A stretch of 63,616 nucleotides of DNA, the filler included, from Globobulimina sp. (lineage: Eukaryota), in NCBI GenBank assembly GCA_003354225.1. It is 21 parts of 21 records of this genome, joined end to end, with 100 filler letters (N's around TTAATTAATTAA, not from the genome) between each part and the next. Parts side by side here need not be neighbours in the genome. Positions count along the whole stretch, not along the records: positions 18,217 to 21,151 come from PIVH01004297.1; 20 more parts are not named here. One strand, written 5' to 3'. Of the stretch, positions 1-54,102 are shown in pieces. Numbering within the stretch: the stretch's first letter is position 1; every line of letters starts with the position of its first letter. Under the pieces are notes generated by a model. The model saw nothing but the letters and a program-made list of their open reading frames with translations, did not search any database and was not told the DNA's origin. The translations under genes and the position numbers were made by a program.

Positions 1-752
1 GGTTGGAAAATATGTCGGATTATATGTCGGATTTGAGGTCGGATTATATGTCGGATTTGCGGTTGGATTATATGTCGGAAAATATGTTGGATCTGTTGTT
101 GGATTATATGTCGGATTTGCGGTTGGATTTGCGGTTGGATTATATGTTGGATTATGCGTGGGGTGTGCTGTAGGATTATATATTGGACCTGACGTTGGAT
201 TATTTGTTGTATAATATGTTGGGTTTGATGTAGGGTTTGATGTAGGGTTTGATGTAGGGTTTGATGTTGGATTTGTGGTTGGATTATATGTTGGATTATG
301 CGTTGGGTATACTGTAGGATTATATGTTGGACCTGAAGTTGGATTATATGTTGGGTAATATGTTGGATTATTTGTTGGATAATATGTTGGGTTTGATGTT
401 GGATTTGAGGATGGATTTGAGGATGGATTTGGGGTTGGATGTGCAGTTGGATTATTTGTCGGATTATATGTTGGATGTGCTGTTGGATCATGTACAGGAT
501 TATATGTTGGATATTCTGTTGGATTAAATGTTGGCTCTGATGTTGGGTTTGATGTTGGATTAAGAGATGGATTAAAAGATGGATTAAGAGTTGGATTTGG
601 GGTTGGATGTCTTGTTGGATTTGAGGTTGGATTTGAGGTTGGAACATATATTGGATGTATGGTTGGATTATATGTTGGATGTGATATTGGATTAAATGTT
701 GGCTTTGATGTTGGATTTGCGGTTGGATTCCGAGACGGATTTGAGATTGGAT
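1..752. repeat. Degenerate 12-bp tandem repeat encoding Pro/Thr-rich tetrapeptides
   Basis: Many gttggattatat / gttggatttgag-like units. Confidence 0.9.
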
Positions 753-1441
753 CTATATATACGTCCATCATAATGCTTGGAACAAATATATAAAAAAAAT
801 ATATAACTTGGAGTTAGTGTGAAATCGGTACATATGGCATCGATGGGGTCGCAGTCATTAAATGTATTCTCACTGATGTTGCATTTCGAGCTATAACCTA
901 TTTCACAATGAATCTGTCCGCCGCGAACACAATTATTTTTATTACATTCTATAAACACATCATTGAATCCTTCGACTGCATAGATATTTATATCACGGAA
1001 TGCCACTCTGTCAAACCCTTCAAAAACACAATTAATCGATTCAGAATCCACAAATGGTCCTATGTAGTAATATACAGATTATATTCGTCTTCAAAGTAAA
1101 TATAACATTATATATAAATACATACCGTCGTTTGGACAATATACTTCAGCATTGTCTAAAGCTCTCGTTCCAGCAACAATGTGTAAATTGGATGATGTGG
1201 TTGCGTTGATATATGCATTGGAGCATGAATCCAATCCATTGCATTCAATATAACACTCGTGATTCGACGGACAATGAATGGCTGAATCTTGACATGAATA
1301 ATTTTCAGAACAAGTTACCTGGCAATCACCTTCTGGCTCACAATCAATAGTGCTTTCACTACAATCTGTGCAGTAATGGCTGCTGGATTCGACATCAGCG
1401 ACTAAACAGATGACATAAATAAAGAGCACAGATTTTGACAT
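1..1441 (-). CDS. Secreted Cys-rich protein with long PTxxPT mucin-like stalk (3' partial)
   Basis: Hydrophobic N-terminus MSKSVLFIYVICLVA and Cys-rich exons. Frame-consistent introns at 1060..1125 and ~753..807 lead into (N/H)PT(Y/S/A) repeats that run off the contig start. Confidence 0.8.
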
Positions 1442-1495
1442 TGTCCTTGTTTGGTTTTTGTTTTTTCAAAAATTAATTAATTTTACCGATACCTA

Positions 1496-2505
1496 ATGTC
1501 TTTAGAACTTGTTGGTTATTGGCAAGGGTATGCTTGTGATTCAACAGAGCCATATCCATTGAATAAAATACCAGAAACAGTGAAATATATTCCAATTGCT
1601 TTTGCGAAACCTGTATACAAAGCGGAATTAGTATCGGAAAAAACTAAAAATAAAAACGAAAAGAAAGGCCTAGAACCACTATGTAACACATGGTCCTTTG
1701 ATAATGATAATGATCCAAATCCGTTTACGTATTCAACCCAGAAAATTAAACAATGGGTAAACGAAATAAATGATCGAGGTACAAATCAATTGGTGTTATT
1801 ATCGTTACTGGACACATCTTATTGTCATTGGTATCCAAATGTTAATATTGAACTATTTGCAAAAAACGTGGCGAAGTCTGTACAAGAATGGAACTTAGGC
1901 GGTGTGGATATCGATGCTGAATCTGGTATGGAAGACAAATACGCGGAGACATTTATAAAATTAATAAAGTGTTTGAGGTATTTTGTATATGTATATGTCA
2001 TCAGATTGTATGTATTGTATACAACACATCACATCATTATAGATCTGAAATGGGTACAGATAAAATAATATCATATACATGTTATACTGAAAGTAGATAT
2101 GATACGGAAATATTGGCAATCTGCAAAAATGATATTGATTTTCTAAACACAATGGCTTATTGGAATGGTTGCCGTGGTCAGATAGCATTATTTAAGCATT
2201 ATGCCAAATGTATTGGCGATCCGAATAAAGTTAGTATTGGATGCAAAGCCGGCAGTGATGGGAGTGAACAATCCACGAATATTGATATTGTTAAACAATG
2301 TGCTATTTGGTGTCGAAAAAATGGATACAAAAGAATGATGTTATGGTCATTAACAAGAGATGTTCAACCAATTACTGATCTGAATGACGGTGAATATTTG
2401 GATACGATGGTGCAGCATATGCAAAAAGATAATGATTGGATTGAAATAAAAGAGAATGATAAAAATAATATTGACTATGAAAGTAAAAGTTGTTATATTC
2501 TATGA
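1496..2505 (+). CDS. Glycoside hydrolase family 18 (chitinase/ENGase-like), two exons
   Basis: VGYW start, IAFA, catalytic GGVDIDAE (DxDxE), LNTMAY, MMLWSL. Intron 1978..2042 joins the two listed ORFs in frame. Ends KSCYIL*. Confidence 0.85.
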
Positions 2506-2796
2506 TTGCAATTTAGAATTAATTATAATTTTGTTTGTGTTTCTTTTTTTTATTTTATTTAATTTGTCAGAGGAAAACATGGGAATAAAAAGCAACCAGA
2601 AACTGCGGAAAACCATCGAATTGTAAATTGATACGTAATTGACAATTTACTGTGTTCTGTAATTTTGATTGTGGTGATCGGACATCACCACAATAAATTA
2701 GCTCAATAGTTGTGTCTGCAGTGGTTAAAAGTTGTTATTTTGTTTAATTTGCCACCGAAATAAAAATCAACCAGAAAACTTTTCAACAATTAAAAC

Positions 2797-2937
2797 ATGT
2801 GGCTTTTTTCAGTTTATAGTCTGTTTGCTCTGTTATTAGGCAACGCAAATTCAGTCAGCTATTCAATTAAAATCGTATTAAACAACATCACAAACCCGAA
2901 AGTGTCACCATATATATTTGGTGTAAATTTTTATCAA
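2797..2937 (+). CDS. Secreted protein N-terminus, possibly a glycoside hydrolase (3' partial)
   Basis: Signal-peptide-like MWLFSVYSLFALLLGNANS. VSPYIFGVN resembles the ISPYIYGxN start of GH44-like enzymes. Confidence 0.35.
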
Positions 2938-3037
2938 NNNNNNNNNNNNNNNNNNNNNNNNNNNNNNNNNNNNNNNNNNNNTTAATTAATTAANNNNNNN
3001 NNNNNNNNNNNNNNNNNNNNNNNNNNNNNNNNNNNNN
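2938..3037. other. Artificial contig-join spacer (first of 20, recurring every ~3.03 kb up to 60585..60684)
   Basis: 44 N + TTAATTAATTAA (stops in all six frames) + 44 N. Flanking contigs shrink monotonically from 2937 to 2932 bp. Confidence 0.98.
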
Positions 3038-3314
3038 CCTCTAAAATAGCACTTGCCCTTTCTTCCAAAAATACAATTTTTCAATTTTTCGATGTCAGCT
3101 CGCTGAATTTGAAAGCTTGCTCAGCTGTACGGAATCTCTCTATTTATTTCAATTCTGAGTGGATCATTGTGGATTATATCGCCAAATATAGGAATAATTA
3201 ACAAAAAAAAATTGAAAACTCATCCTTCCTTTTCAACCTCAAATCCAACCAAACAAAACTCAATTGGTCATTGAATTGAAAACAAATCCAACGCCTACAC
3301 AAATTATATCAAAA

Positions 3315-5261
3315 ATGAATTTACTGATGATTGATATTTTAGAGTATCTCCCACAACTTTGTGACGAAATGTCACTAGCAATCATCCAGTTTTCGATAAT
3401 TTTAGGTGCTGCATATGTTTTACGTAAAATTGTGAAAAATATATATTTTCGATATTATGATAAAGTAAAATATGTTACATTAAATTCCATCATATCAGCC
3501 AAAACTTTGTACGATTTTATAATAGTAGGAAGTGGTACTTCAGGCTCGTGTGTGGCCGGAATATTAGCCAGAGATATTAGAAACCCCAAAGTGTTATTAA
3601 TCGAAGCAGGTGGTCCAGACAATTATCATCCATTATCAACACAAGTTATACCACTTACTGTGGGTCATGAAGAAAATACAGACAATGATTGGAATTATAA
3701 AACAAGAGCACATATGAAATGGCCAAGAGGTAAAATTATGGGTGGTTGCAGCGTATTGAATTGGATGGTTTATGTAAGAGGAAACAAAACAGATTATGAT
3801 TTATGGTGCAATAAATATGATTGTAAAGGTTGGTCGTATCAAGAAATTGAATCTATTTTTAAATACTTTGAAAAATGTATGTTTAGTAATACTGATAAAA
3901 AGGATGCACATGTCAGAGGACACTTTGGCTTACAGAAAATATTCAAAAAAAAAGACAATCAACAAAGTATAATTGCCAAATTATTTGTAAAAGCTGCAGT
4001 CAATGCTGGGTATAAATTTAATGATGATTACAATGGAATAAGACAAACAGGTGTGAGTTATACACAATTTACATGTGATGAAAATGGAAGACGGGTCACA
4101 AGTTTCAGATCATTTGTGTCTTCATTATTTGCTGCTGATGGAAATTGTTCAAACATTGATATTTTGCATTCATGTCAGGTGACAAAGATTTTGTGTTCCA
4201 AAAATAAGAATAAGAATAAAAATATTGCTATTGGTGTTGAAATTGGAGGGAATAAAAATCACCGTATATTTATTGATGAAAATAATCGAGGAGAAATTAT
4301 TATTAGTTCAGGTACGATTGGCTCAGCACATTTATTATTATTGTCAGGTATTGGTGATGCAAAACAATTGAAACAACATAATATTGAATGTATTGCCAAT
4401 ATATGCGGCGTAGGACAGAATCTAAGGGATCATATTGGACAATGTGTGTTTGTATCATTACCAGATAATATTGTACCTGATACGTCATTGTTTAAAGGTA
4501 TTATTTCACCATATTTATGCAACGGTTTAGGACTTTTCTCGACAAGTGGTGCTGATGCTATGTTATTTTGTAAATCATCAGTTGCAACACAAAATGGATT
4601 AAATACAAATGATTTACAAATTGGTTGTTCAGTAATTCCATACAATGCATCCAGCCAAAATCCAATTAATAAATATTTATATTGGAAATTAAAAGAACCA
4701 AATTGTTCAGAATTTATATTTAAGAGAAAAAAAACAGAATTGGGCAATAATAACAGTAAACATTGTTTTAAATTAAGTGTAATAAATAATCAACCTAATT
4801 CAGTTGGTTGTCTTAAATTGGCAAGTTCAAATCCATATGATCAGCCAATAATTGAACCACATTATTTATCAAATAAAAAAGATATACTACAATTAATTGA
4901 TGGTTTTATGATAATAGAAAATATTATTAAACAAGAACCATTTCAATCATTAGGATGTCAAATTATACAATATGAAAATTTTGATACATTTATTGATTAT
5001 GTAAAATGTATTACCCAAAATCATTTATATACATTTTATCATCCAATTGGTACATGTCGAATGGGAAATATTTGCAATGATAAATTCGCTGTTTGTGATG
5101 AGAGATTAAACGTATTAACATTTGAAAATTTAAGAGTTATTGATGCATCAATTGCACCTTCATTGGTATCAGGAAATATTCAAGCCATGTGTTATGTTAT
5201 TGGATGTAAAGGCGCTAAAATGATATTAAAAGATTGGCAATGCGAAAGTAAGAAAAAATAA
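3315..5261 (+). CDS. GMC oxidoreductase (choline/glucose dehydrogenase-like) with N-terminal hydrophobic helix
   Basis: YDFIIVGSGTSG, VLLIEAGG, WPRGKIMGGCSVLNWMVYVRG, GVGQNLRDH, YHPIGTCRMG, LRVIDAS. Intronless. Confidence 0.93.
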   Translation: MNLLMIDILEYLPQLCDEMSLAIIQFSIILGAAYVLRKIVKNIYFRYYDKVKYVTLNSIISAKTLYDFIIVGSGTSGSCVAGILARDIRNPKVLLIEAGGPDNYHPLSTQVIPLTVGHEENTDNDWNYKTRAHMKWPRGKIMGGCSVLNWMVYVRGNKTDYDLWCNKYDCKGWSYQEIESIFKYFEKCMFSNTDKKDAHVRGHFGLQKIFKKKDNQQSIIAKLFVKAAVNAGYKFNDDYNGIRQTGVSYTQFTCDENGRRVTSFRSFVSSLFAADGNCSNIDILHSCQVTKILCSKNKNKNKNIAIGVEIGGNKNHRIFIDENNRGEIIISSGTIGSAHLLLLSGIGDAKQLKQHNIECIANICGVGQNLRDHIGQCVFVSLPDNIVPDTSLFKGIISPYLCNGLGLFSTSGADAMLFCKSSVATQNGLNTNDLQIGCSVIPYNASSQNPINKYLYWKLKEPNCSEFIFKRKKTELGNNNSKHCFKLSVINNQPNSVGCLKLASSNPYDQPIIEPHYLSNKKDILQLIDGFMIIENIIKQEPFQSLGCQIIQYENFDTFIDYVKCITQNHLYTFYHPIGTCRMGNICNDKFAVCDERLNVLTFENLRVIDASIAPSLVSGNIQAMCYVIGCKGAKMILKDWQCESKKK

Positions 5262-5819
5262 ATTATAATATAAAATTTACAAATTCTTCAACTTTAAAAA
5301 TAACCTTTTGTATGATGTATATATCCACCATCCATTTAATATAATTTGCTACATGTATAAAAACGTCAAAGTATTAGTAAATGCAGAGTCTAAAAAACAT
5401 CAAGCTAGACCAAAATAGTTTTGTCCCATAAATATTTGTTGTCAAATTTATGTATGTTTATAAAGTGATTTGCAGCCGTACTAGAATCGTATTACAGTTG
5501 AGAACTTGTTATGAGTGGTGCCTGGGCGGTTACCTCTTCATATGCAGTTGTCGCTGCGCTCTGAACTTCCTGTGCTAATATCTCAAATGAAGAAATATTG
5601 TTCCAATCCAAATAAGAAAAATACAATACTGATTTGAGTAACCAACGAAACAGATCATATGCTTTGTGAATCAATATATTTTTACTCTTCTATTCTGTGA
5701 TAATACATTCCATAGCTTCATTTGTCACATATGAATGGCATTGGATACAATTTCGCGATCTGATCGGGGATTGTTGCTTCAACTTGAAGTTTGGTTTTTT
5801 ATCGATCGCTAGTGAAACC

Positions 5820-5973
5820 ATGTCGCAGAATAATGGGCAACCGTCACCGGCCGGTGACCCTCTGCCACAAAATGTCACACAGTTGCAATATCTCACCATG
5901 TATTTGCAAAAGTATGCTCAGCAACAGTACCTATACTCCCAACAATATTACCATCAGATCAATATGAATTGCA
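5820..5973 (+). CDS. Q/Y-rich hypothetical protein N-terminus (3' partial)
   Basis: ATG-initiated frame MSQNNGQPSPAG...QQYYHQ running to the contig end. Confidence 0.35.
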
Positions 5974-6334
5974 NNNNNNNNNNNNNNNNNNNNNNNNNNN
6001 NNNNNNNNNNNNNNNNNTTAATTAATTAANNNNNNNNNNNNNNNNNNNNNNNNNNNNNNNNNNNNNNNNNNNNTTTTCTGTAACCAGCAACGTAAAAATT
6101 ATCCGATTGCATAATGTGAAAACCTTGAATGTTCACGATATTTTAATTTCTAAAAACGTCTTGAATGTTTTTTTGAATGAAAATGACTTGGTTTATCTGT
6201 TTATTGTGTCATAATTGTGTATAAATATTTGAATTATGAGCTTAAGCGGCCACAAAAAAGCAATGAACATTCAAGATTACTAAATAGATAGATTATGCCA
6301 CGAAAAACTCCAATCACTCCCCGAAAAGTTAAAT

Positions 6335-7428
6335 GTGCGGAAAAATTTATGTTTTAACACGTTCTTGTCCAAAATATCAATTTTTGATCGTTTAGAAACG
6401 TGTGTATTGTGGCGTGATAGCACTATGAAATTATTCATTATTAATAAAATTAATTGCAACACATTGAAAGTATTAAAATTAGGGGAGTTCAATTTTAACA
6501 AAGAAATATTAAAAGCAATTATTAATTGTGTTAATTTAGAAAGTTTGACACTTAGAGCTGTTACAATTAATAATGATGAAAATATTAATAATGATCCAAT
6601 GTTATCGCAGTTGAAGCAATTAAATCGGATAAAACATTTTAAAACAGATTCTGTATTCGTACGACAATTATCTAACTTTGTTAAATGGATTTTAAATGGC
6701 AATAAAAAGAAAAAAGTGCTTACATTATCATGTTATTCAAATGTTAAATTATTTGAGTTTATTGGTGCAAATACATTACAAAATTTAAAAGAAATTAAAT
6801 TGAGTTTTCATGGTTCAAACGAGGTCAATTCGGTGTTGAGTGATATTGGAAATGCAATGAAAATCATGAAAAAAAAATATGGAACAAAATTGGAGAATAT
6901 ACATTTTGGATTTAGATCGATATCACAAAGTAATGAAAGTATGTCACAATGGAAAGATACCTTTAATAAAATGGGAATTATTTCATCATTGTGTAATTTT
7001 ACAAGTTTATCAGTGGATTTTGATTTTGTTGGGCGAACCGTTGATATGAATGAATTTGTATCATTGTTAATTAACGCAAAATACGAATTTTTACCGATTG
7101 TTATATCCAACCCCGACCAAATGCAAATGACACAGATAATGATTTACAAATAAAAAGTAAAAAAATTGCAACCCAATTCATAGAAGCCTATGATGCAAAG
7201 TTGAAACCATTTTTAAGGATTACAACACAAATAATGAAACAAATTGGAATTTCACGGATTGAAACTTCGATTATTGGAATTATGTACAGTCCAATCTTTC
7301 GTTTGTGTGAAAAAAATATATCAGACATTCAACAAACAATTGAACAAAACTGTGATGATGCATGTGTAGTGGAGGGAGATTCGTTTACCATGCAATTGAT
7401 ATTAATTAAAGAAACATCATTTGTTTAG
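6335..7428 (+). CDS. Hypothetical LRR-like protein, apparent frameshift near 7110
   Basis: LxxLxL segments (LKVLKL, LESLTL, LKEIKL). The coding frame appears to switch near 7110 into the 7201..7428 ORF. Confidence 0.4.
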
Positions 7429-17931: not shown

Positions 17932-18216
17932 TAAAGAAGATTAAAAGTAAAAAGTTTGTGGATTTTGGATCTAAAAAGATTACAAGTTTGTGGATCTAGG
18001 ATATAAAAATAATTGGTTTGTTCTGGGTTTATTTAAAAAAAAAGAAAACAAATAATGGATAAAACAAAACAAAATACATAAATCCGCAAAATAAATGAGG
18101 ACAAACTATATCAATGNNNNNNNNNNNNNNNNNNNNNNNNNNNNNNNNNNNNNNNNNNNNTTAATTAATTAANNNNNNNNNNNNNNNNNNNNNNNNNNNN
18201 NNNNNNNNNNNNNNNN

Positions 18217-18457
18217 TTTTTAATGATTTTATGATAGCCGCAGGGGTTTTGATTACTTGCAAATTCTTTCTTTTTATGATATCCTTTAATTTCTTTGCTT
18301 TCGATTTTGAATTCGATTTATGTGCATTCTTGTTTTTTTTCGATTTCTTTTTAGTCGTTGCCTTTTTCGTCGTCGCATTTGTCGTCAAATCTACGAGTGG
18401 TTTTCCATGAATCGACTCTGTCTTCACAATGGTGGCAGAATTGTTGGTATTATCCAT
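18217..18457 (-). CDS. Lys/Thr-rich hypothetical protein N-terminus (3' partial)
   Basis: Open frame to the contig end; very basic. Confidence 0.35.
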
Positions 18458-18613
18458 TGAATGGTGGCAGAATTGTTGGTCTTTGAGAAAAAAGATGTTT
18501 TGAAAACCAAGTTAGTGTTCACAGTGAAATTAAATCGTCGTCAAGTCAAAAGTTAGGTTCCTTTGTAGCAAAAGTAAAAGTAAAAATGAATAAAAAAGCT
18601 TTGTTATCATCGT

Positions 18614-21139
18614 TTAATTCCAAAAATTTTGAATCCATTTAGGGATAGTTATTGCATTATCGTATAGGGATTGAGATAAGAAGCGCAAGATATGCAAACA
18701 ACTCCATTTATTTTTTTTTATGCCATGCACATGATGACTTTGTAACATGCCTCCTTGACTGACCATTAGCAACACTGACCCTGGTCTTTGCGTAAAGTGT
18801 AAATTGAAACACTCTGCATTTTGTCCACACTTCCAATCAGAATCATCAAAACAAAATTTAATATATTCGTCGCCATTATAATCAAATGTTCCTTTGTCGA
18901 TATTTGGAGTGCCATTCCTCTCATATGCAATTAATAAAATTATATCCTTTGTGCCATGATTTATTTTCAAATTACATTGTGGGAAATCCTCAATGTCAAT
19001 CACTTCAAAATCATACATACATTTATCATCGGCGTGCTTATATTGTGTTTCATTTTTATAACACATTATTTCTTGCATCTGAATCTTACGACTCGCCAAC
19101 TTTAGATTTTCTAAAAAATGCGCTTCAGGGAATAATTCAAATGCTTTGTCAAATACTTTATCGCATAAACGTAATATATTTAAGGTATCCGTAAGATACT
19201 CAGCACCATATAATGTTCGATCGTCATTTTTTATTAATTCATACTTTGCCTTCGATATTCCGAATAAATTGACCATACCCCAAAGTAATTGATCATACCC
19301 CAAATTGGTCATCATGTCCCGAACTTTATATGTTAAACCATTGAAATATATAACGCTGTCAAGCTGCCCGCTTTTTCGGTGCCAATGTGTTGACGGATCT
19401 TTCTGGATTTTGACCGAGTTAGTGTCCGCGTCATATAACTCCTCCAAAAATATTTTTCTTATTTTGTCCCTTTGTTCGTGATACCAATTCCCGATTTCCT
19501 CGATATGAATTGCTCGGATGAACGCTCCATTATGCCTTCTTTTTAGATGGAATGTAATGTCTTTGTCGCAGCCTTCAATTGATACTGTTGCAGACGGGGC
19601 GCTTAATTTCGATTGATCGGCTAACGCTGGATAATTTGAAATAAAATCATTGATAGTAATGAATATAAATTGCTCGGATGGATGTAATTTTTGATCGAAC
19701 CCCAAAAAAGTATAATGCTTCGTACATTCTTTAACATTGACAAACACCAAAAAAAAATATATATCTGTATTGATTTTAACAATCTCTCGGCACTTCCAAT
19801 CACCTACTTTCTCGGAGGGGGCAGGTGTCCGTTCTGTGGTTAGTTCATCCTCGAAGGTGTTTCTGGAAGACGAAACAAACAATTTCCGTTTTCGCCACCA
19901 CATATAACCGCATTTATGACATACATCCCACCCGTCAATACATAGTAGATGTGAAGCACATTGATTTAATCTCACCACACCGCGATAAGAAGGACATTCG
20001 GTGTTATTGCACCCTCTAGCTTGCCATCTTTTCATGCTTCTTTTACATTTATCACACCGACTTCGTTTACCATGCGATTTACCTGGTTTATCATTATTAT
20101 ATTGAATATGTCGTCTCGTTACTTGAAGAGTGATGGGATATGTTTTGATGGATTCAGGATCTTCGATTTGCAAACAATCCGGGCATAACCAATGGGCCCC
20201 GTCGCTAATAAAGTGAACATTTTTGGTTGCGGCGCATTTGCCACACAGACATTTCGTACAGCCATCACATTCCATTAATTCTCCCCTTCTTTCGCAGATA
20301 TAACACTCGTCATCATTGTTGTCCAATTCTTTTAATTCATCATCTTCATCGCATTTCGGTTGTAACGCAGCGAAAGACTCGGCCGCAAATAACAAGTCAC
20401 TGGAATTTCTGACAGACTCCCTTGATGATATTGTCGCGGCGTGTAATAATATTTTATCATTTGATGATTTAAATGATAAAATGATGTCTCTTGATCGGGT
20501 CAGACCATGTTTCACCAATAATTGTTCGACTGTTAATTGCCTTTGTTTCATAATTTCATCAATTGCTGGGATCAGCCCATGTTTCTCCTTTAATTGTTCG
20601 ACTGTTAATTGAAGTGTTTTTTCTTCGTTTTCAATCTGAAACTCCACATTTTCGTCGACATTCAGATTGTAGTCAATTGAAGTGTTTTCATTCATATTTG
20701 TTTGATTTACTGCGTGTAGCGGATACTGTGGATATGCTGATGGATTGTACTTGAATGCTGATGGATTGTAATTGAATGCCATATCACGGCGCATTGATGA
20801 TACTGCGTTGTTGTTGAATGCCAGATCACGGCGTTGCTGTTGTTGTTGAAAAACGAATCTGAATGACTCCACGAAAGTCGGTGGCAACAAATTGACGGTG
20901 GATCGGAGTGACTGCGCGTAGCGCTTGTAATTGGTATGACTAGGCAACGTTTGCTTTAAACGTTGGAGTTTCGTGTCGTATTTCTCTGGCCGGTCTACAT
21001 ATTTCTTTATGAGACCGTGATGGTCTTTATATTTGAAGTTCAAATGAGTTCCCCAAATATTGCTTCTGCGTTGTCGTGGTAAATTTGTCCAGTTGGACCA
21101 GAGTTCAATGTTGAAGGTGACATTGGCGTCATGCGACAT
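18614..21139 (-). CDS. ADD/PHD-like zinc finger protein with putative C-terminal 2OG-Fe(II) dioxygenase domain
   Basis: CYIC-x7-CDGC-x4-CGKC...WLCPDC plus a second Cys cluster. C-terminal Y-x7-HAD...PGSVLLM...HGI...LRF pattern. Confidence 0.65.
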   Translation of the reverse strand: MSHDANVTFNIELWSNWTNLPRQRRSNIWGTHLNFKYKDHHGLIKKYVDRPEKYDTKLQRLKQTLPSHTNYKRYAQSLRSTVNLLPPTFVESFRFVFQQQQQRRDLAFNNNAVSSMRRDMAFNYNPSAFKYNPSAYPQYPLHAVNQTNMNENTSIDYNLNVDENVEFQIENEEKTLQLTVEQLKEKHGLIPAIDEIMKQRQLTVEQLLVKHGLTRSRDIILSFKSSNDKILLHAATISSRESVRNSSDLLFAAESFAALQPKCDEDDELKELDNNDDECYICERRGELMECDGCTKCLCGKCAATKNVHFISDGAHWLCPDCLQIEDPESIKTYPITLQVTRRHIQYNNDKPGKSHGKRSRCDKCKRSMKRWQARGCNNTECPSYRGVVRLNQCASHLLCIDGWDVCHKCGYMWWRKRKLFVSSSRNTFEDELTTERTPAPSEKVGDWKCREIVKINTDIYFFLVFVNVKECTKHYTFLGFDQKLHPSEQFIFITINDFISNYPALADQSKLSAPSATVSIEGCDKDITFHLKRRHNGAFIRAIHIEEIGNWYHEQRDKIRKIFLEELYDADTNSVKIQKDPSTHWHRKSGQLDSVIYFNGLTYKVRDMMTNLGYDQLLWGMVNLFGISKAKYELIKNDDRTLYGAEYLTDTLNILRLCDKVFDKAFELFPEAHFLENLKLASRKIQMQEIMCYKNETQYKHADDKCMYDFEVIDIEDFPQCNLKINHGTKDIILLIAYERNGTPNIDKGTFDYNGDEYIKFCFDDSDWKCGQNAECFNLHFTQRPGSVLLMVSQGGMLQSHHVHGIKKNKWSCLHILRFLSQSLYDNAITIPKWIQNFWN

Positions 21140-21313
21140 TTAAATAAAAAANNNNNNNNNNNNNNNNNNNNNNNNNNNNNNNNNNNNNNNNNNNNTTAAT
21201 TAATTAANNNNNNNNNNNNNNNNNNNNNNNNNNNNNNNNNNNNNNNNNNNNTTGAAACAAAGAAAAACAGAAACAAAATCAAAGAAGTGATTTGAAACAA
21301 AATGGAAAAAGCC

Positions 21314-22294
21314 TCATCGCCAAGCGCCAGAGACATGAGCCCTCTGCGCATTCGGGCAATTGACCGTAGTATGGGCATTGGCCAAACCACAGCTCTTACA
21401 ATAATGAGGCCATTGACAGCCCATAAAATTATGAGCAAAACGACATTTGCGAGCCGGATCATCAAAGTAACGACAAGGCGGAATGCCCGCGAATTGCGGG
21501 GCAATGAAATGATGACCTTGCTGCAAAACAAAATACTTCGACGACGGCGTAGGCGTAGACTGCTGCGCATTATTCGTATTCTGCGATGAGTCCGGCCCAA
21601 AGGAAGGCTGCTGGTACGGATGCATTGGCTGCTGCGGAACAGCGCGAGGCTGCGGAACAGCGCGAGGCTGCTGCGGAAAAGAACCGGTATGATTTGGGCC
21701 ATAACGCGCACGCTTCCGAGGAGGTGGCTGCTGCGCATACTGATAATTCTGAGCGATAACAGGCGGAGAACGCACATTCGGAGTATTCACCCTCTGCCTC
21801 GCGCGAAAAGCTCCATTATTCGTATGATTGCCTCGGAGCCATTTATTCGCTTTCCGCGTTCTGTTAATTTGTTTATGTAGCATCCGCGGACAGTTACGCT
21901 TAAAATGTGGGCCCTGACACTCATAACAACGCAAAGCGGGAACAGCCGGACGGGGTGCCACCTTATTTGCCATTGCGGGGACAGCACCCGATACGTTTGA
22001 CGATGCCGCAATACTGACGTAAGCCTGAAGACATTCATCGGGCAAATTCTGTATCGCAAACAGAGGCTTGTCATGCGACCGCATCATTTGCCTCCAAACA
22101 TGCACAAATTCCGCTGAATTCCAACGCAACGAACGTTCATTATTGGCGGTCCGAAACTTATTGACTTGAAACGCGATCGCAATCTGCTGCCAACATACTG
22201 TGACAGAAACGGAATGATCATTGATAATCGGAATGATATACGAATTAACAAAGATGCGAACATCCTTAAAACCCCTCAAAATATATGCAACCAA
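21314..22294 (-). mobile_element. Gag-like ORF of a tyrosine-recombinase (DIRS/Ngaro-type) retrotransposon, 5' disrupted
   Basis: Zinc knuckle CYECQGPHFKRNC and C-terminal CRYFD..C...C..PHYCKSCG...H....CP. Raised GC; an in-frame stop sits directly upstream. Confidence 0.6.
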
Positions 22295-38145: not shown

Positions 38146-39240
38146 TTAGATTTTACGATTTTTATAAAGCAAAAATGCCTGATGAGGACTCGTAAACACA
38201 CAACATAAAGATTTAATGTTACAATTTCTCATTCCATATTCCAATCGCATCCCTCCAAAATAATGTTTATACGGCGCCAATGAATTTGCAACTTGTTTCA
38301 CCATATGCTCAACACGCTCTTCATTAAGATATGATAATCTCAAACCATTCGAAAAAACAATCATATCCATAATGTGTTCCAAATAATGAATTTTTATTCC
38401 AGCATTACATTCTCCTTTCTCTTTATTTGCGGCAGGTGGTCCAAATTCATTCAGAAACTCATAATATAAAGGAATATATCCTGAGATTGTTGCTTTCAAT
38501 ATTTCTATTTCTTCAGCACTATATTTTGAGGTATATTTTTCTGCCATTGTTTCTGTTTTTCGATCATCATTTGACTGTTTATTTCGATGCTTTGCAATCG
38601 CATAATAAATAATGGAAAATTTATCCATCAAACTCTCATATTTTTCTCCTACATTTATTTCAATTTCCTCTTGAACCATATCACATAACTCTTTATAATA
38701 TTCTACATTCTTTTTCACTACAAAACCTTTCAATGAACCGGGTCTGTAATCTTTTTGAATCATTCCTTTACTGCTCATAAATTCATAAACTTTTCTATAT
38801 GCATTTTCTTCCTCTAATAAAAACATTTGTTGTTCAATTTTATCATTCAATTCTTTAATATTATTTTCCATGTCCCGGAAATTCATAGAAATACTCATTT
38901 CCAAATCATTCAAATCATAACCTGTATCAATAGCCTCCTCTGTTTGTAGTAATTGTATCATTTCAATTTCTTTTTCTCTTTTTTGATCTTGATATTTTAT
39001 TAATTCTTGCAATGTTTTATTATTTTCTTTATCATTCATATTGGTTTTCTCTCTGACATAAAATAATAATGCTGCTTGTTGTTTGTACATTATACCTTCA
39101 GGAACATGGAAGGTAGGCAATGTCCAACACCACGGATATATTGGAACCAAAGGTTTATGTCCAATGCCTTTGCAATCAACCAAGCAATCACCACTTAAAT
39201 AATTATTATAATTGCTCCAAACACTACAATTTGTTCGACC
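38146..39240 (-). mobile_element. Transib/RAG1/Chapaev-like DDE transposase, C-terminal exon (5' partial)
   Basis: RT-x6-Y, KPL..I, P-x-FH-x3-GI, helical insertion, then KIHYLEH...LSYLNEERVEHM (K-x-H-x3-H plus catalytic Glu helix). Confidence 0.6.
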
Positions 39241-50697: not shown

Positions 50698-51630
50698 TTG
50701 TGTTGTGTATAAATTATATATTTGCTAAAACAAAGATATATATTTGTTCAGTTTAACTGTGTTTGACTGTGGAAATGAAATGGATAATCTTTAGCTAATA
50801 CATCACTTAAAACTGGTAATATTGTCAATATTCTATAAAAATCCGCGTGCGTTAATACTAGTTCCCGTTCTATATAGTTTTCATATCATTTATTGTTATT
50901 ATTCAATTCAAATTAAGTTTGCAACGATTACTGACAATTAATCGAAAACGTTTCCGGTTTAATATTATCAAAAATGTGATCGTAGCAAACTTAATTTGCA
51001 GTAAAATATAAAAATGTTAACTGGAATCGACTAGTTTTATGAAAGAGTGTGTAACAGAATCAATCACATTGAATAAAAAGGGTTGAAACCAAAACTTTTC
51101 ATCATTCTCTGATATTTCATGGATTAAATTAATGATTGACGATTGTTGTTGTTCTTCGACTGACGCAGTTAACATTGTTCTCGTACGAAGGAGCTGTTGC
51201 ATGCGATATTCATTATTTGCATATATATTTGTTCATTGTTACAATGCACTTAACAGATTTAGAGGTATTTTGAATAATAGACTCAAATTGAGCCTGTTTC
51301 TGCGTTGAGTGCTGAGTTTGTCTCGCGGCGGATCTGAGTTTACGAATGCAATCATCATAAAAATTAGGCGGTTTCCTATAATGTAGATAACGTTGAGACA
51401 CTTCCATGTAAGTTAATGTATTGTGATAAGTTGAGTTCATATCCCATGGCGGAAGTTCTTTCGGTGTTAATGCAACTGTCATTGGTGCNNNNNNNNNNNN
51501 NNNNNNNNNNNNNNNNNNNNNNNNNNNNNNNNTTAATTAATTAANNNNNNNNNNNNNNNNNNNNNNNNNNNNNNNNNNNNNNNNNNNNTTTTGAGTTTAT
51601 GGTTCTTACGCGAACTTTAATTTAATTAAT

Positions 51631-52743
51631 TTGAGGTCATTTTACTTCTCCTTGGAAAAAAAAAAACTCTCAGTTAAGTTGTGTCGATTTACACAACTCC
51701 ATAATGAACCGTCGCGCTATCATAACCAATTCAATATCCCTGCATTTGAGAAATATTTAGAAGGAAAACCAAAGGGTAAATCCGATGTAAAATGGATCAA
51801 AGTCGGATTTCCACTTTGGTTGAAGACACACTTTCAATCAAAAACACAACAACAAACACACGCCATTCATAACAAACTCTCAACGAAGATTTCAAATATT
51901 GCCAATACACCACAAGAAACTTTGGCGATATTGGATAAAATGATTGATGAGGCAGAGAATGGACAAATTGAACCATTTCTTGGTACTCCTAAATATATGA
52001 TAATGATTTTCTGCACACAGAAGAAAGACGGACAAGGTAAATATACCAAGTTCCGTGTGATAAGAAATGGTTCATTCAAAACCAAATCAACCTCCTCCAT
52101 AAATGAATTGATCCGTCCCATTAAATGCAAGATACCCTCCTTACCAAATTTGAAAAAATATATAAAAACGTTAATTGATTGCAATTTCTTTGCAATTCGT
52201 GATTTATCCGATTTCTTTCGCCAAATCGGATTATGTGAGGAAGATAGCGACTATATTTGCTATTCCCTGTTCGGCTTAGTATGGCGAGATAGAAAGCAAC
52301 CATATGGAGTGGCGTCAGCGCCTGCCAACTCTCAGTACTTTGCCCAAATCCTAATCTGGATATTGGATAACAAGATATTTGATATAGGAGCGGTGACTGA
52401 AGCCGACTGTACCGAAATGGAAAAACGCTTTGACACTTTAATGAAAGAACTTAATGAAAGAACTTCTTCCAATGGATTATCCGATGCATTATCAAGAAAC
52501 CAAATGAATGCGTTTTGGTCCATTGTCCAAAATTTTAATCTCGAGATGACCAAAAATAAAACGAACACATTCTATTTTAATCAATTTAAATTCATGAATA
52601 AACAATTAAATAATGGTGATCCTGTGATTGATTATCAATATGTTGATGATGAATATAAAGCGTTTATTGATTTCCTACGCTTACCATTAAAAGAGAGAGC
52701 ACGGATTGGATATCCTAATTATGCATCCAATTTTACATTATAA
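51631..52743 (+). mobile_element. DIRS/Ngaro-type reverse transcriptase-RNase H remnant, internally deleted
   Basis: KKD..KFRVI, SINELI, DLSDFFRQI, PYGVASAP; no YxDD; jumps to the RNase H end NGLSDALSR. Confidence 0.8.
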
Positions 52744-52817
52744 TAACCTCAATATTCTATATTGTGTGCAGTTTGCCATTGTGTGAATATTAATTGACAA
52801 TGTTTTTTTCTGTCTAG

Positions 52818-54102
52818 CTTGGTACAGAAGACGTTTCCAGAGAACTCACAAATTAGCGTCTAAACGACCAAAGACGGCAGACTTTATTGTGGAAACTAAT
52901 GTTTTAGATAAATGTATTGGCACCAAAGTGCAATACATTTCCCATTTAAGAAACTGGGTGTTTTATTGTGTCACACTAAAAGAGAACCCTTTCAAACTAC
53001 CGACAAATCCATCCCTCGCTTTGTTTTGGATAGCTGACCGTATACAACAATCCAATAAGGTGACATGTATACGTCAGGCACAATCAATGTTGTTATGGTT
53101 GCATGACATTGATGACATATACAGCCAACATTCAATACTGACGGCGAGTATACCCGCTTCAAACTCAGTGCCACTAAGCGCTTTGATACGCCTTCCGATT
53201 CCAGATTGCCTATAAAACTTAAACATTTAATCCGATATACATTGCAATCCAATTGTGTCATAAATCACTACCAAACAATACCATTAGACACATTATTAAA
53301 AGTATTGATAATCCAAATGTATTTTTTCACCATGTCACGTCCATCGGAGCTATTATTATCCAGATACTCCACAACGAAAAGAGGCGTTCTATTCAAACAT
53401 ATTGCATTCATAAAACTAAAACCATCCGATCCAAGTACTCATTTCCTACGAATGCAAATAATATCTCATAAATCCATGAAATCGCTTAATGATTCCAAAT
53501 TATTATTTGTAGGACATTCCTATTGTTCAGAAGTACTACATTCCAATGTATCCTGTCCATGTAAACTGTTAAGCCCGTTAAGATTATTAAAAGTATATCT
53601 AAAAAGAAGAAAGCAGCTCGCCTCCACTCTCCATGATGGTAAACGCAAAAACAGTCTTCGATTATCAGCAAACAAAAACGTGTTTGTATGGTCGAGCGGC
53701 AAAGTGGTTGACACCACTTCATTAGCAAAAATAATTAAAGAAGTAGTCGCTGCAAATTCTAGATATATATTGGAGCCAAAACGTTTCTCCGCTTTCAGCT
53801 CCAGAATAGGTGGTACTACCAGAGCCTCCCAAGTCGGAATTGCTCACGGACTTATTTTGAAATATGTAGGATGGAGCGATGCCAAACTCCCGGATATCAG
53901 TATGCGGTATGTCCGCCCAGACGCAATAAGTCTCAGTCGCATGATCCATGACATCATCCATGGTCCATCCCATAATGATTTGAACACCAAAAATAGATTA
54001 TTCCTACAAACGAATGTCGTGTTTGATCCATGTGCGAAATGCGAGGATCGAAGATTCTGTTATCAACAAATCAAGAACAGACACAAAAGAAACAAGAGAT
54101 AA
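52818..54102 (+). mobile_element. Tyrosine recombinase of the same retroelement, frameshifted/deleted near 53110-53210
   Basis: N-domain T..QY....NW..YC; catalytic pattern SRPSEL, HKS, FSSRIGGTT, VGWS, MRYVR; lies directly downstream of the RT. Confidence 0.8.

What the first reader, a model, noticed from the sequence alone, without database searches (positions are those of the whole stretch)
18614..21139. ADD/PHD histone-reader finger fused to a putative AlkB/TET-like 2OG-Fe(II) dioxygenase
Seen: an intronless 841-aa ORF with DDECYICERRGELMECDGCTKCLCGKC...WLCPDC (all-Cys PHD variant) and a second Cys/His cluster. The C-terminus reads MCY..TQYKHADD...IILLIAY...PGSVLLM...HHVHGIK...CLHILRF. Known: the all-Cys PHD is typical of ADD domains (DNMT3/ATRX). 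Y..HxD, GSlllM, HgI and a terminal-strand Arg match the AlkB-type double-stranded beta-helix; the first Arg of the AlkB RxxxxxR motif is absent here. Inference: a chromatin-targeted nucleic-acid or protein hydroxylase, possibly a new DNA-modification enzyme and possibly carried by a mobile element.
Basis: partly seen in the sequence, partly recalled or inferred. Interest (0 to 1): 0.72.

Follow-up and report, generated by a model that had tools for sequence, protein, structure and literature searches.

The report
PHD-finger dioxygenase family in foraminifera
A real gene of a foraminifer-like protist joins a histone-reading zinc finger to a very divergent iron- and oxygen-using enzyme of the class that chemically edits DNA bases and proteins; it belongs to an undescribed multi-copy family linked to jumping genes, but what it modifies is still unknown.

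Summary
The 841-codon ORF and every quoted motif are real, under purifying selection against own-genome paralogues (dN/dS 0.13-0.17 in the catalytic half). The zinc finger is a PHD finger (AIRE PHD1, E 1e-4), not a full ADD domain. An AlphaFold model (pTM 0.70) gives a 2OG-Fe(II) double-stranded beta-helix; AlkB, prolyl-hydroxylase and TET structures score within about 2 Z. HxD and the distal His are invariant. The 2OG-binding basic residue is probably not lost: it is Lys811, in TET/prolyl-hydroxylase register. Defining substrate residues of TET, AlkB and P4H all fail, and profile comparisons see none of them: a new clade. At least 11 copies, several broken, lie in this genome; one is fused to an integrase, and a neighbour gene recurs beside a Mutator-like transposase and a SET gene. 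Best guess: a chromatin-targeted DNA-base oxidase carried as transposon cargo (0.38); a histone/protein hydroxylase is a close rival. The scan had not noted this sequence before; one loosely similar transposon cassette was noted in another genome.

The parts
18217..21151 (.). The contig that holds the gene (G000:C4297, 2935 bp); everything outside it in the window is unrelated contigs
   Evidence: N44-spacer-N44 joints at 18117-18216 and 21152-21251
18614..21139 (-). 841-aa ORF: N-terminal region, PHD finger, second PHD-like Cys/His cluster, middle domain, 2OG-Fe(II) dioxygenase domain
   Evidence: paralogues; dN/dS
20765..21139 (-). N-terminal region (aa 1-125) of unknown function, shared with two own-genome paralogues (39-45% identity); conserved start
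20165..20320 (-). All-Cys PHD finger (aa 274-325; C299 at the usual His site), AIRE-PHD1-like acidic N-terminal patch
   Evidence: AIRE 1xwh E 1e-4, ATRX E 0.34; PHD E 0.006, zf_RING-like E 5.6e-4, both below cut-off; dN/dS 0.16; present in P0002, absent from P0005/P0006
19910..20056 (-). Second Cys/His cluster (aa 362-410), C-x2-C-x11-C-x4-C ... C-x2-H ... C-x2-C; distant members have a C4HC3, PHD-like pattern; the family-wide partner of the catalytic domain
   Evidence: alignment; ORFs; no Pfam hit for 5 of 5 excised clusters, so 'PHD-like' rests on ligand spacing
19571..19882 (-). Middle domain (aa 420-523), conserved (dN/dS 0.29 for aa 420-564), fold not predicted
   Evidence: no Pfam hit
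18617..19570 (-). 2OG-Fe(II) dioxygenase domain (aa 524-841), double-stranded beta-helix
   Evidence: AlphaFold model; fold searches
19028..19036 (-). H702-x-D704 iron ligands (Y694 on the preceding strand, 19058-19060, also invariant)
   Evidence: 12 of 12 covering rows each; this stretch has pLDDT under 50 in the model
18734..18736 (-). H802, distal iron ligand
   Evidence: 14 of 14 covering rows
18683..18709 (-). Last strand K811-x-S813-x-L-x-I817-x-R819: proposed 2OG C5-binding Lys, R-x-S-type Ser, invariant terminal Arg
   Evidence: register from PMC7854593 and PMC4396695; strand E289-297 in the model
18218..18457 (-). Start of a downstream Lys-rich ORF that runs off the contig; begins with the same six residues as the ORF downstream of paralogue C2723, otherwise no similarity
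   Evidence: E 81

Best explanation
A nuclear 2OG/Fe(II) dioxygenase of a new clade that works like transposon-borne TET/JBP enzymes. Shown: DSBH fold, invariant HxD...H triad, PHD finger, purifying selection, multi-copy family with broken copies, relatives beside transposase-type genes. Inferred: H702/D704/H802 bind Fe(II), K811 with S813 and Y694 bind 2OG; the PHD finger(s) dock on the histone H3 tail, probably unmethylated K4 as in AIRE (recalled), i.e. on silent chromatin; the enzyme there oxidises the methyl group of a flipped-out 5-methylpyrimidine (5mC or thymine), with invariant R819 contacting the base as R418 does in CMD1; the family spreads as cargo of large DNA transposons (Mutator-like and rva_4/integrase types) as an anti-silencing device. 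Component odds: fold 0.95, catalytically active 0.85, chromatin-targeted 0.75, transposon cargo now or recently 0.6, 5-methylpyrimidine substrate 0.38.
Confidence: 0.38

Rival explanations
1. A chromatin protein hydroxylase or demethylase: the PHD fingers hold a histone tail and the DSBH hydroxylates a Pro, Lys or methyl-Lys residue, as EGLN/P4H-class enzymes do on proteins.
Confidence: 0.27
2. An AlkB-like N-demethylase: removes N6-methyladenine or alkylation damage from DNA or RNA, with the PHD finger confining it to H3K4-unmethylated chromatin; it could be the eraser partner of PHD-fused adenine methyltransferase-like genes noted elsewhere in this genome.
Against: RxxxxxR not met in 0 of 12 rows; basic-to-Arg spacing is 8, not 6; no PF13532 hit; hhalign against 20 AlkB sequences at shuffle level (0.18%); no AlkB family among the 30 named Atlas rows' listed sets.
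Confidence: 0.2
3. A CMD1-like enzyme with another co-substrate, or a partly degenerate family in which only the reader fingers matter.
For: The basic residue at the 2OG site is missing in 5 of 12 rows (Met, Asp, Gly, Gly, Tyr) and a conserved Trp/Tyr follows it; CMD1 shows a TET homologue using vitamin C (PMC7854593). Extra invariant Cys pair (C763 14 of 14, C771 15 of 15) has no counterpart that I could assign.
Against: The window copy keeps Lys, its Bolivina relative Arg; iron ligands are invariant; dN/dS 0.13-0.17 in the C-terminal catalytic half.
Confidence: 0.1
4. On the separate question of mobility (not exclusive with the above): the PHD-bearing subfamily is a domesticated host gene family, or part of an integrated virus-like element, rather than active transposon cargo.
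For: The same PHD + Cys cluster + DSBH architecture is kept in Bolivina argentea (P0002, 32% identity); strong purifying selection; no mobile hallmark on the window contig; only three PHD-subfamily copies seen.
Against: Two near-identical copies with unrelated flanks, many broken relatives, integrase fusion, recurrent neighbour gene beside a transposase-like ORF; no relative in IMG/VR for 2 of 2 queries.
Confidence: 0.35

Closest known systems
Transposon-encoded TET/JBP dioxygenases of fungi (PU, AG, PE types; PMC12730594) and TET homologues NgTET1 (5cg8), TET2 (9hxv), CMD1
   Same: DSBH fold, HxD...H triad, basic-x-Ser...Arg/His last strand with spacing 8, extreme divergence, multi-copy with decayed copies, association with several transposase types
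   Different: No Pfam PF12851 or profile match; base-reading Asn/Asp and stacking aromatic not conserved; Lys at the 2OG site; fused PHD fingers (the word PHD does not occur in the main text of PMC12730594); host is a foraminifer-like protist
AlkB family (ALKBH1 5xoi, ALKBH5 4nj4/7v4g, E. coli AlkB 3khb)
   Same: Highest or tied structural scores, beta-I Tyr, G-S-x-x-x-M strand
   Different: No RxxxxxR, no PF13532 hit, histone-reader fusion
Prolyl hydroxylases (EGLN1/PHD2 5ox6, collagen P4H 7zsc, algal P4H 3gze; PF13640 type)
   Same: Tied structural scores, Tyr...HxD, beta-III Asn, His+9 basic residue, His+17 Arg
   Different: Substrate-binding Tyr and Arg of P4Hs absent; ~20-residue insert after beta-III; extra invariant Cys pair
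AIRE PHD1 / ZMYND8 / TRIM24-type PHD fingers and the PHD half of ATRX/DNMT3 ADD
   Same: Acidic patch before the first Cys, GEL-x-C-x-x-C core, W-x-C-x-x-C end; His-to-Cys change as in ADD
   Different: No GATA-like finger, so not an ADD; a second PHD-like cluster follows instead

Membership tests
2OG-Fe(II) dioxygenase superfamily | Double-stranded beta-helix fold | tested here: met
2OG-Fe(II) dioxygenase superfamily | HxD/E...H iron triad | tested here: met
   H702 12 of 12, D704 12 of 12, H802 14 of 14 covering rows; sequence only
2OG-Fe(II) dioxygenase superfamily | Triad geometry in three dimensions | tested here: inconclusive
   Model residues 176-206, which hold HxD, have pLDDT under 50; coordinates not returned
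2OG-Fe(II) dioxygenase superfamily | Basic residue (R-x-S type) for the 2OG C5 carboxylate | tested here: met
   K811-x-S813 in the window; K/R in 7 of 12 rows, S/T/N in 12 of 12; register inferred from PMC4396695 and PMC7854593
2OG-Fe(II) dioxygenase superfamily | Fe- and 2OG-dependent turnover | not testable with these tools
   needs enzyme assay
TET/JBP | Pfam PF12851 or profile match | tested here: not met
   0 of 16 rows; hhalign 0.11% against 33 phage sequences, which are one phage lineage and shallow; Atlas lead 0.85 only
TET/JBP | Asn/Asp three after the iron Asp (reads 5mC N4) | tested here: not met
   2 of 12 rows; Cys in the window (definition)
TET/JBP | Stacking Tyr/Phe six after the 2OG Arg | tested here: not met
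   0 of 12 rows; Ile in the window (definition)
TET/JBP | Arg/His eight after the 2OG Arg, Ser two after it | tested here: met
   R819 and S813; 12 of 12 rows with a last strand (rows were picked by a pattern that ends in Arg, and agree with alignment)
TET/JBP | Structural nearest neighbour | tested here: inconclusive
AlkB | C-terminal RxxxxxR | tested here: not met
   0 of 12 rows; S/T/N at the first position
AlkB | Pfam PF13532 or profile match | tested here: not met
Prolyl 4-hydroxylases (EGLN/P4H) | Substrate-binding Tyr (Y310 of PHD2) and Arg (R322) | tested here: not met
   Tyr in 0 of 12 rows, no conserved Arg before beta-III; definition PMC4396695; PHD2 H313 numbering recalled
ADD domain | All-Cys PHD finger | tested here: met
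   C299 at the His position of AIRE
ADD domain | GATA-like finger N-terminal to the PHD (definition recalled) | tested here: not met
   Only one Cys (C263) in aa 1-278; DNMT3_ADD Pfam E 0.16 for one paralogue only
PHD histone readers | Binding to the H3 tail (K4 unmethylated) | not tested
   Only sequence likeness to AIRE PHD1; no complex job was run
Cargo-carrying DNA transposon | Transposase, terminal repeats and target-site duplication around this copy | tested here: inconclusive
   Contig is 2935 bp with none of these; indirect links in relatives

The most novel reading that the evidence does not exclude
A separate lineage of DNA-base-oxidising dioxygenases, neither TET/JBP nor AlkB by their substrate residues, carrying its own histone reader, is carried by large foraminiferal DNA transposons together with SET and deubiquitinase cargo, and installs or erases a DNA mark (possibly an undescribed base) on H3K4-unmethylated chromatin to escape silencing.
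Probability: 0.25. Interest if true: 0.85.

Novelty: new variant of a known kind. Interest (0 to 1): 0.62.

Why it matters
TET/JBP and AlkB are the only established eukaryotic families that oxidise methylated DNA bases. This family has the catalytic core but fails the substrate signatures of both and of prolyl hydroxylases, and is invisible to Pfam and profile searches, so whichever substrate it has will be a new enzyme specificity or a new structural solution to an old one. A reader-eraser fusion on protist transposons would extend the anti-silencing arms race known from fungi and plants to Rhizaria, and it gives a concrete, single-polypeptide assay target for foraminiferal epigenetics, for which my searches returned no study of DNA-modifying dioxygenases.

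Tried and rejected
Pfam on the whole protein and on 16 family rows: no relevant hit. PDB sequence and profile searches of the catalytic domain: nothing significant. Single-sequence AlphaFold: pLDDT 37, discarded. Protein database searches: profile A2 found only P0005 and P0006 among 6456 candidates and missed P0002, A3 found 0 of 4954, P0005 found only itself and P0006 among 3011: sensitivity is low, so the family's range is not defined. IMG/VR, JGI metagenomes and phage records: no relatives. Local hhalign: no signal against TET, AlkB or PF13640 sets although references hit one another (TET-P4H 86%, AlkB-P4H 91%, TET-AlkB 1.9%); global mode gave unusable alignments. CMD1 and CcTET were not among the 50 rows listed; this does not exclude them. 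Tet_JBP search of the own genome: 0 candidates. Sequencing runs: no RNA holder listed; X2 and X3 gave nothing. The shared six-residue start of downstream ORFs was considered as synteny and dropped (E 81). An HMG-like N-terminus in C704/C3400 copies was suspected by eye; Pfam did not support it. JmjC demethylase: considered because of the PHD finger, ranked lower. Giant-virus origin: no evidence found. Literature searches that found no description of this family. The presence of a eukaryotic 6mA methyltransferase in the genome was not searched.

Full report
Observation. The ORF at 18614-21139 (minus strand, 841 aa) exists as described. The window is not a chromosome stretch: 20 N-spacers join 21 contigs of about 2.93 kb, so the gene's only real context is 18217-21151, which ends 12 nt upstream of the ATG. 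An in-frame stop precedes the ATG, and two paralogues begin with the same Met-Ser, so the start is probably right. One contig of run X1 spans 18545-21151 with one synonymous change in the ORF; this may be the source sample. Named relatives are two EukProt proteins of the foraminifer Bolivina argentea; a preprint treats that data set as a transcriptome, which is indirect evidence that relatives are expressed. The assembly also holds prokaryotic contigs (IS3-like L069/L070), but the PHD finger and the Bolivina relatives mark this gene as eukaryotic.

Zinc fingers. Residues 274-326 match AIRE PHD1 (E 1e-4), then ZMYND11/8, TRIM66 and PHF21A; ATRX ADD is weaker (E 0.34). The finger has Cys at the usual His position, as in ADD domains, but only one Cys precedes it, so the GATA-like half of ADD (definition recalled) is missing. 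The acidic patch before the first Cys resembles AIRE, a reader of unmethylated H3K4 (recalled; binding untested). The second cluster (aa 362-410) is kept in P0002, P0005, P0006 and several own-genome copies and has a C4HC3 pattern in the distant ones; Pfam names none of 5 excised clusters. It, not the first finger, is the family-wide partner of the catalytic domain.

Family. A search of 1.84 billion representatives with aa 524-841 gave 4 hits: P0002 (E 5e-36, same architecture), P0003, P0004 and P0005 (E 7e-4); P0006 was added. In the own genome, close paralogues lie on C4344, C35994, C2723, C25933 and C2180. Exact 119-bp overlaps chain C4344 to C35994 and then to either C25933 or C2723: two near-identical copies with different 3' flanks, C2180 being a second 5' variant. 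Searches with P0005 and divergent copies (some links weak, E up to 0.15 for one genome) raise the count to at least 11 distinct catalytic-domain copies; C704, C5825, C3159, C40732 and C47128 carry stops, C4231 and C1137 are truncated. Window copy against close paralogues: dN/dS 0.16 in the PHD, 0.28 in the second cluster, 0.39 in aa 528-776, 0.13-0.17 in aa 738-833.

Membership. TET/JBP: no Pfam hit, base-reading Asn/Asp in 2 of 12 rows, stacking aromatic in 0 of 12; only the last-strand spacing and a weak Atlas lead (ranks 1-27 of 30 named clusters carry Tet_JBP, scores 0.84-0.85) speak for it. AlkB: RxxxxxR in 0 of 12. P4H: the shared substrate Tyr in 0 of 12 and no conserved Arg. hhalign against 33 phage TET/JBP, 20 AlkB and 19 PF13640-type sequences stayed within shuffled scores, while two of three reference pairs matched each other. 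I therefore file it in none of them: it is a new clade with mixed features.

Context. The window contig shows no transposase or convincing terminal repeat. Relatives do point to mobile DNA. On C4231 a catalytic domain lacking its last strand runs in frame into an rva_4 integrase lacking its start (PF24764 E 3.5e-23): a deletion within one element or a nested insertion. Another rva_4 contig has a PHD-like ORF upstream. The gene head-to-head with the C2180 copy has relatives on 7 other contigs; on C158 it shares 7.4 kb with a 625-aa ORF that shows Mutator transposase motifs (recalled; no Pfam or PDB hit; 2 further relatives) and a terminal array of 10-nt repeats; on C3866 it faces a SET-domain gene. 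C25933 continues into a UIM-USP gene. These links are one step removed from the window copy. PMC12730594 documents TET-like genes, some barely detectable by HHpred, on 11 lineages of fungal DNA transposons, and SET genes on oomycete MuDR elements.

Substrate availability. The 5 C5-methyltransferase matches (6 candidates scored) look DNMT2-like (2) or prokaryote-like (3) by eye; spliced DNMT1/3/5 genes could be missed. CpG o/e over 21 window contigs is 0.64-1.29; intact PHD-bearing copies have 1.06-1.52 and the C4231 integrase 0.26, a weak hint that some elements were methylated and these were spared. Unchecked earlier notes report PHD-fused adenine-methyltransferase-like genes in this genome, which keeps 6mA in play.

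Mechanism and verdict. Most likely a chromatin-targeted, TET-like oxidase of a 5-methylpyrimidine, spread as DNA-transposon cargo against silencing (0.38); rivals are a histone/protein hydroxylase (0.27), an AlkB-like N-demethylase (0.2) and an unusual co-substrate or degenerate enzyme (0.1). Fold, triad, selection and copy number are shown; histone binding, substrate and mobility of this copy are inferred. Novelty: new variant of a known kind; interest 0.62.

Papers seen: PMC12730594 (abstract, passages, sections 1, 3.2.3, 3.4); PMC7854593 (passages; 59, 132); PMC4396695 (passages; 122); PMC4738411 (passages; 84); bioRxiv 10.64898/2026.05.21.726589 (passages; 94); bioRxiv 10.1101/2025.08.14.668559 (passages; 96); PMC6446971 (passages; 133); VANC papers (search listing only; 129). 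No figures or supplements were seen. Searches found no description of this family; subscription journals are not covered.

Noticed in passing
window, whole: The window is 21 unrelated contigs of 2932-2937 bp, sorted by length and joined by 100-nt N-spacers; neighbours across spacers mean nothing.
   Followed up: yes
window 51595-54102: A reverse-transcriptase-like fragment followed by a tyrosine-recombinase-like ORF, by eye a decayed DIRS/Ngaro-type retroelement; no significant Pfam hit.
   Followed up: partly
window 38146-39090: ORF whose C-terminus resembles, by recalled motif, a RAG1/Transib-type transposase end; no Pfam support.
   Followed up: partly
window 21314-22294: Gag-like ORF with a CCHC knuckle and further Cys/His clusters, on its own contig; no significant Pfam hit.
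   Followed up: partly
L005:516-734 and L008:3050-3161: A ~190-bp element with 26-bp inverted ends sits 3 nt behind the stop codon of one paralogue; the sister copy has a related sequence at the same place in the opposite orientation, and L009:83-214 is similar.
   Followed up: partly
L082 (G000:C158) 1-7423: Probable end of a large Mutator-like element: 10-nt tandem array, transposase-like ORF, a divergent 620-aa ORF and an unnamed multi-copy gene.
   Followed up: partly
L083 (G000:C3866) 1475-3053: SET-domain gene head-to-head with the same unnamed multi-copy gene; SAM-domain ORF nearby.
   Followed up: partly
L008:906-2165: ORF with a RING-like finger (E 0.27) and a C-terminal part that by eye resembles a Ulp1/adenain-type cysteine protease.
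   Followed up: no
L009:256-1203: ORF that by eye resembles an OB-fold single-strand-binding protein, beside the unnamed multi-copy gene; no significant Pfam hit.
   Followed up: no
L081/L062 (G000:C3783) and L064 (C25174): A prokaryote-like C5-methyltransferase start at the end of a eukaryote-looking contig, and a restriction-like domain fused to an intein-bearing C5-methyltransferase.
   Followed up: no
L069, L070: Bacterial IS3-like elements in the assembly, showing prokaryotic contigs mixed in.
   Followed up: no
L020:1621-2931: MYND-finger gene downstream of a broken family copy (PF01753 E 6.9e-9).
   Followed up: no
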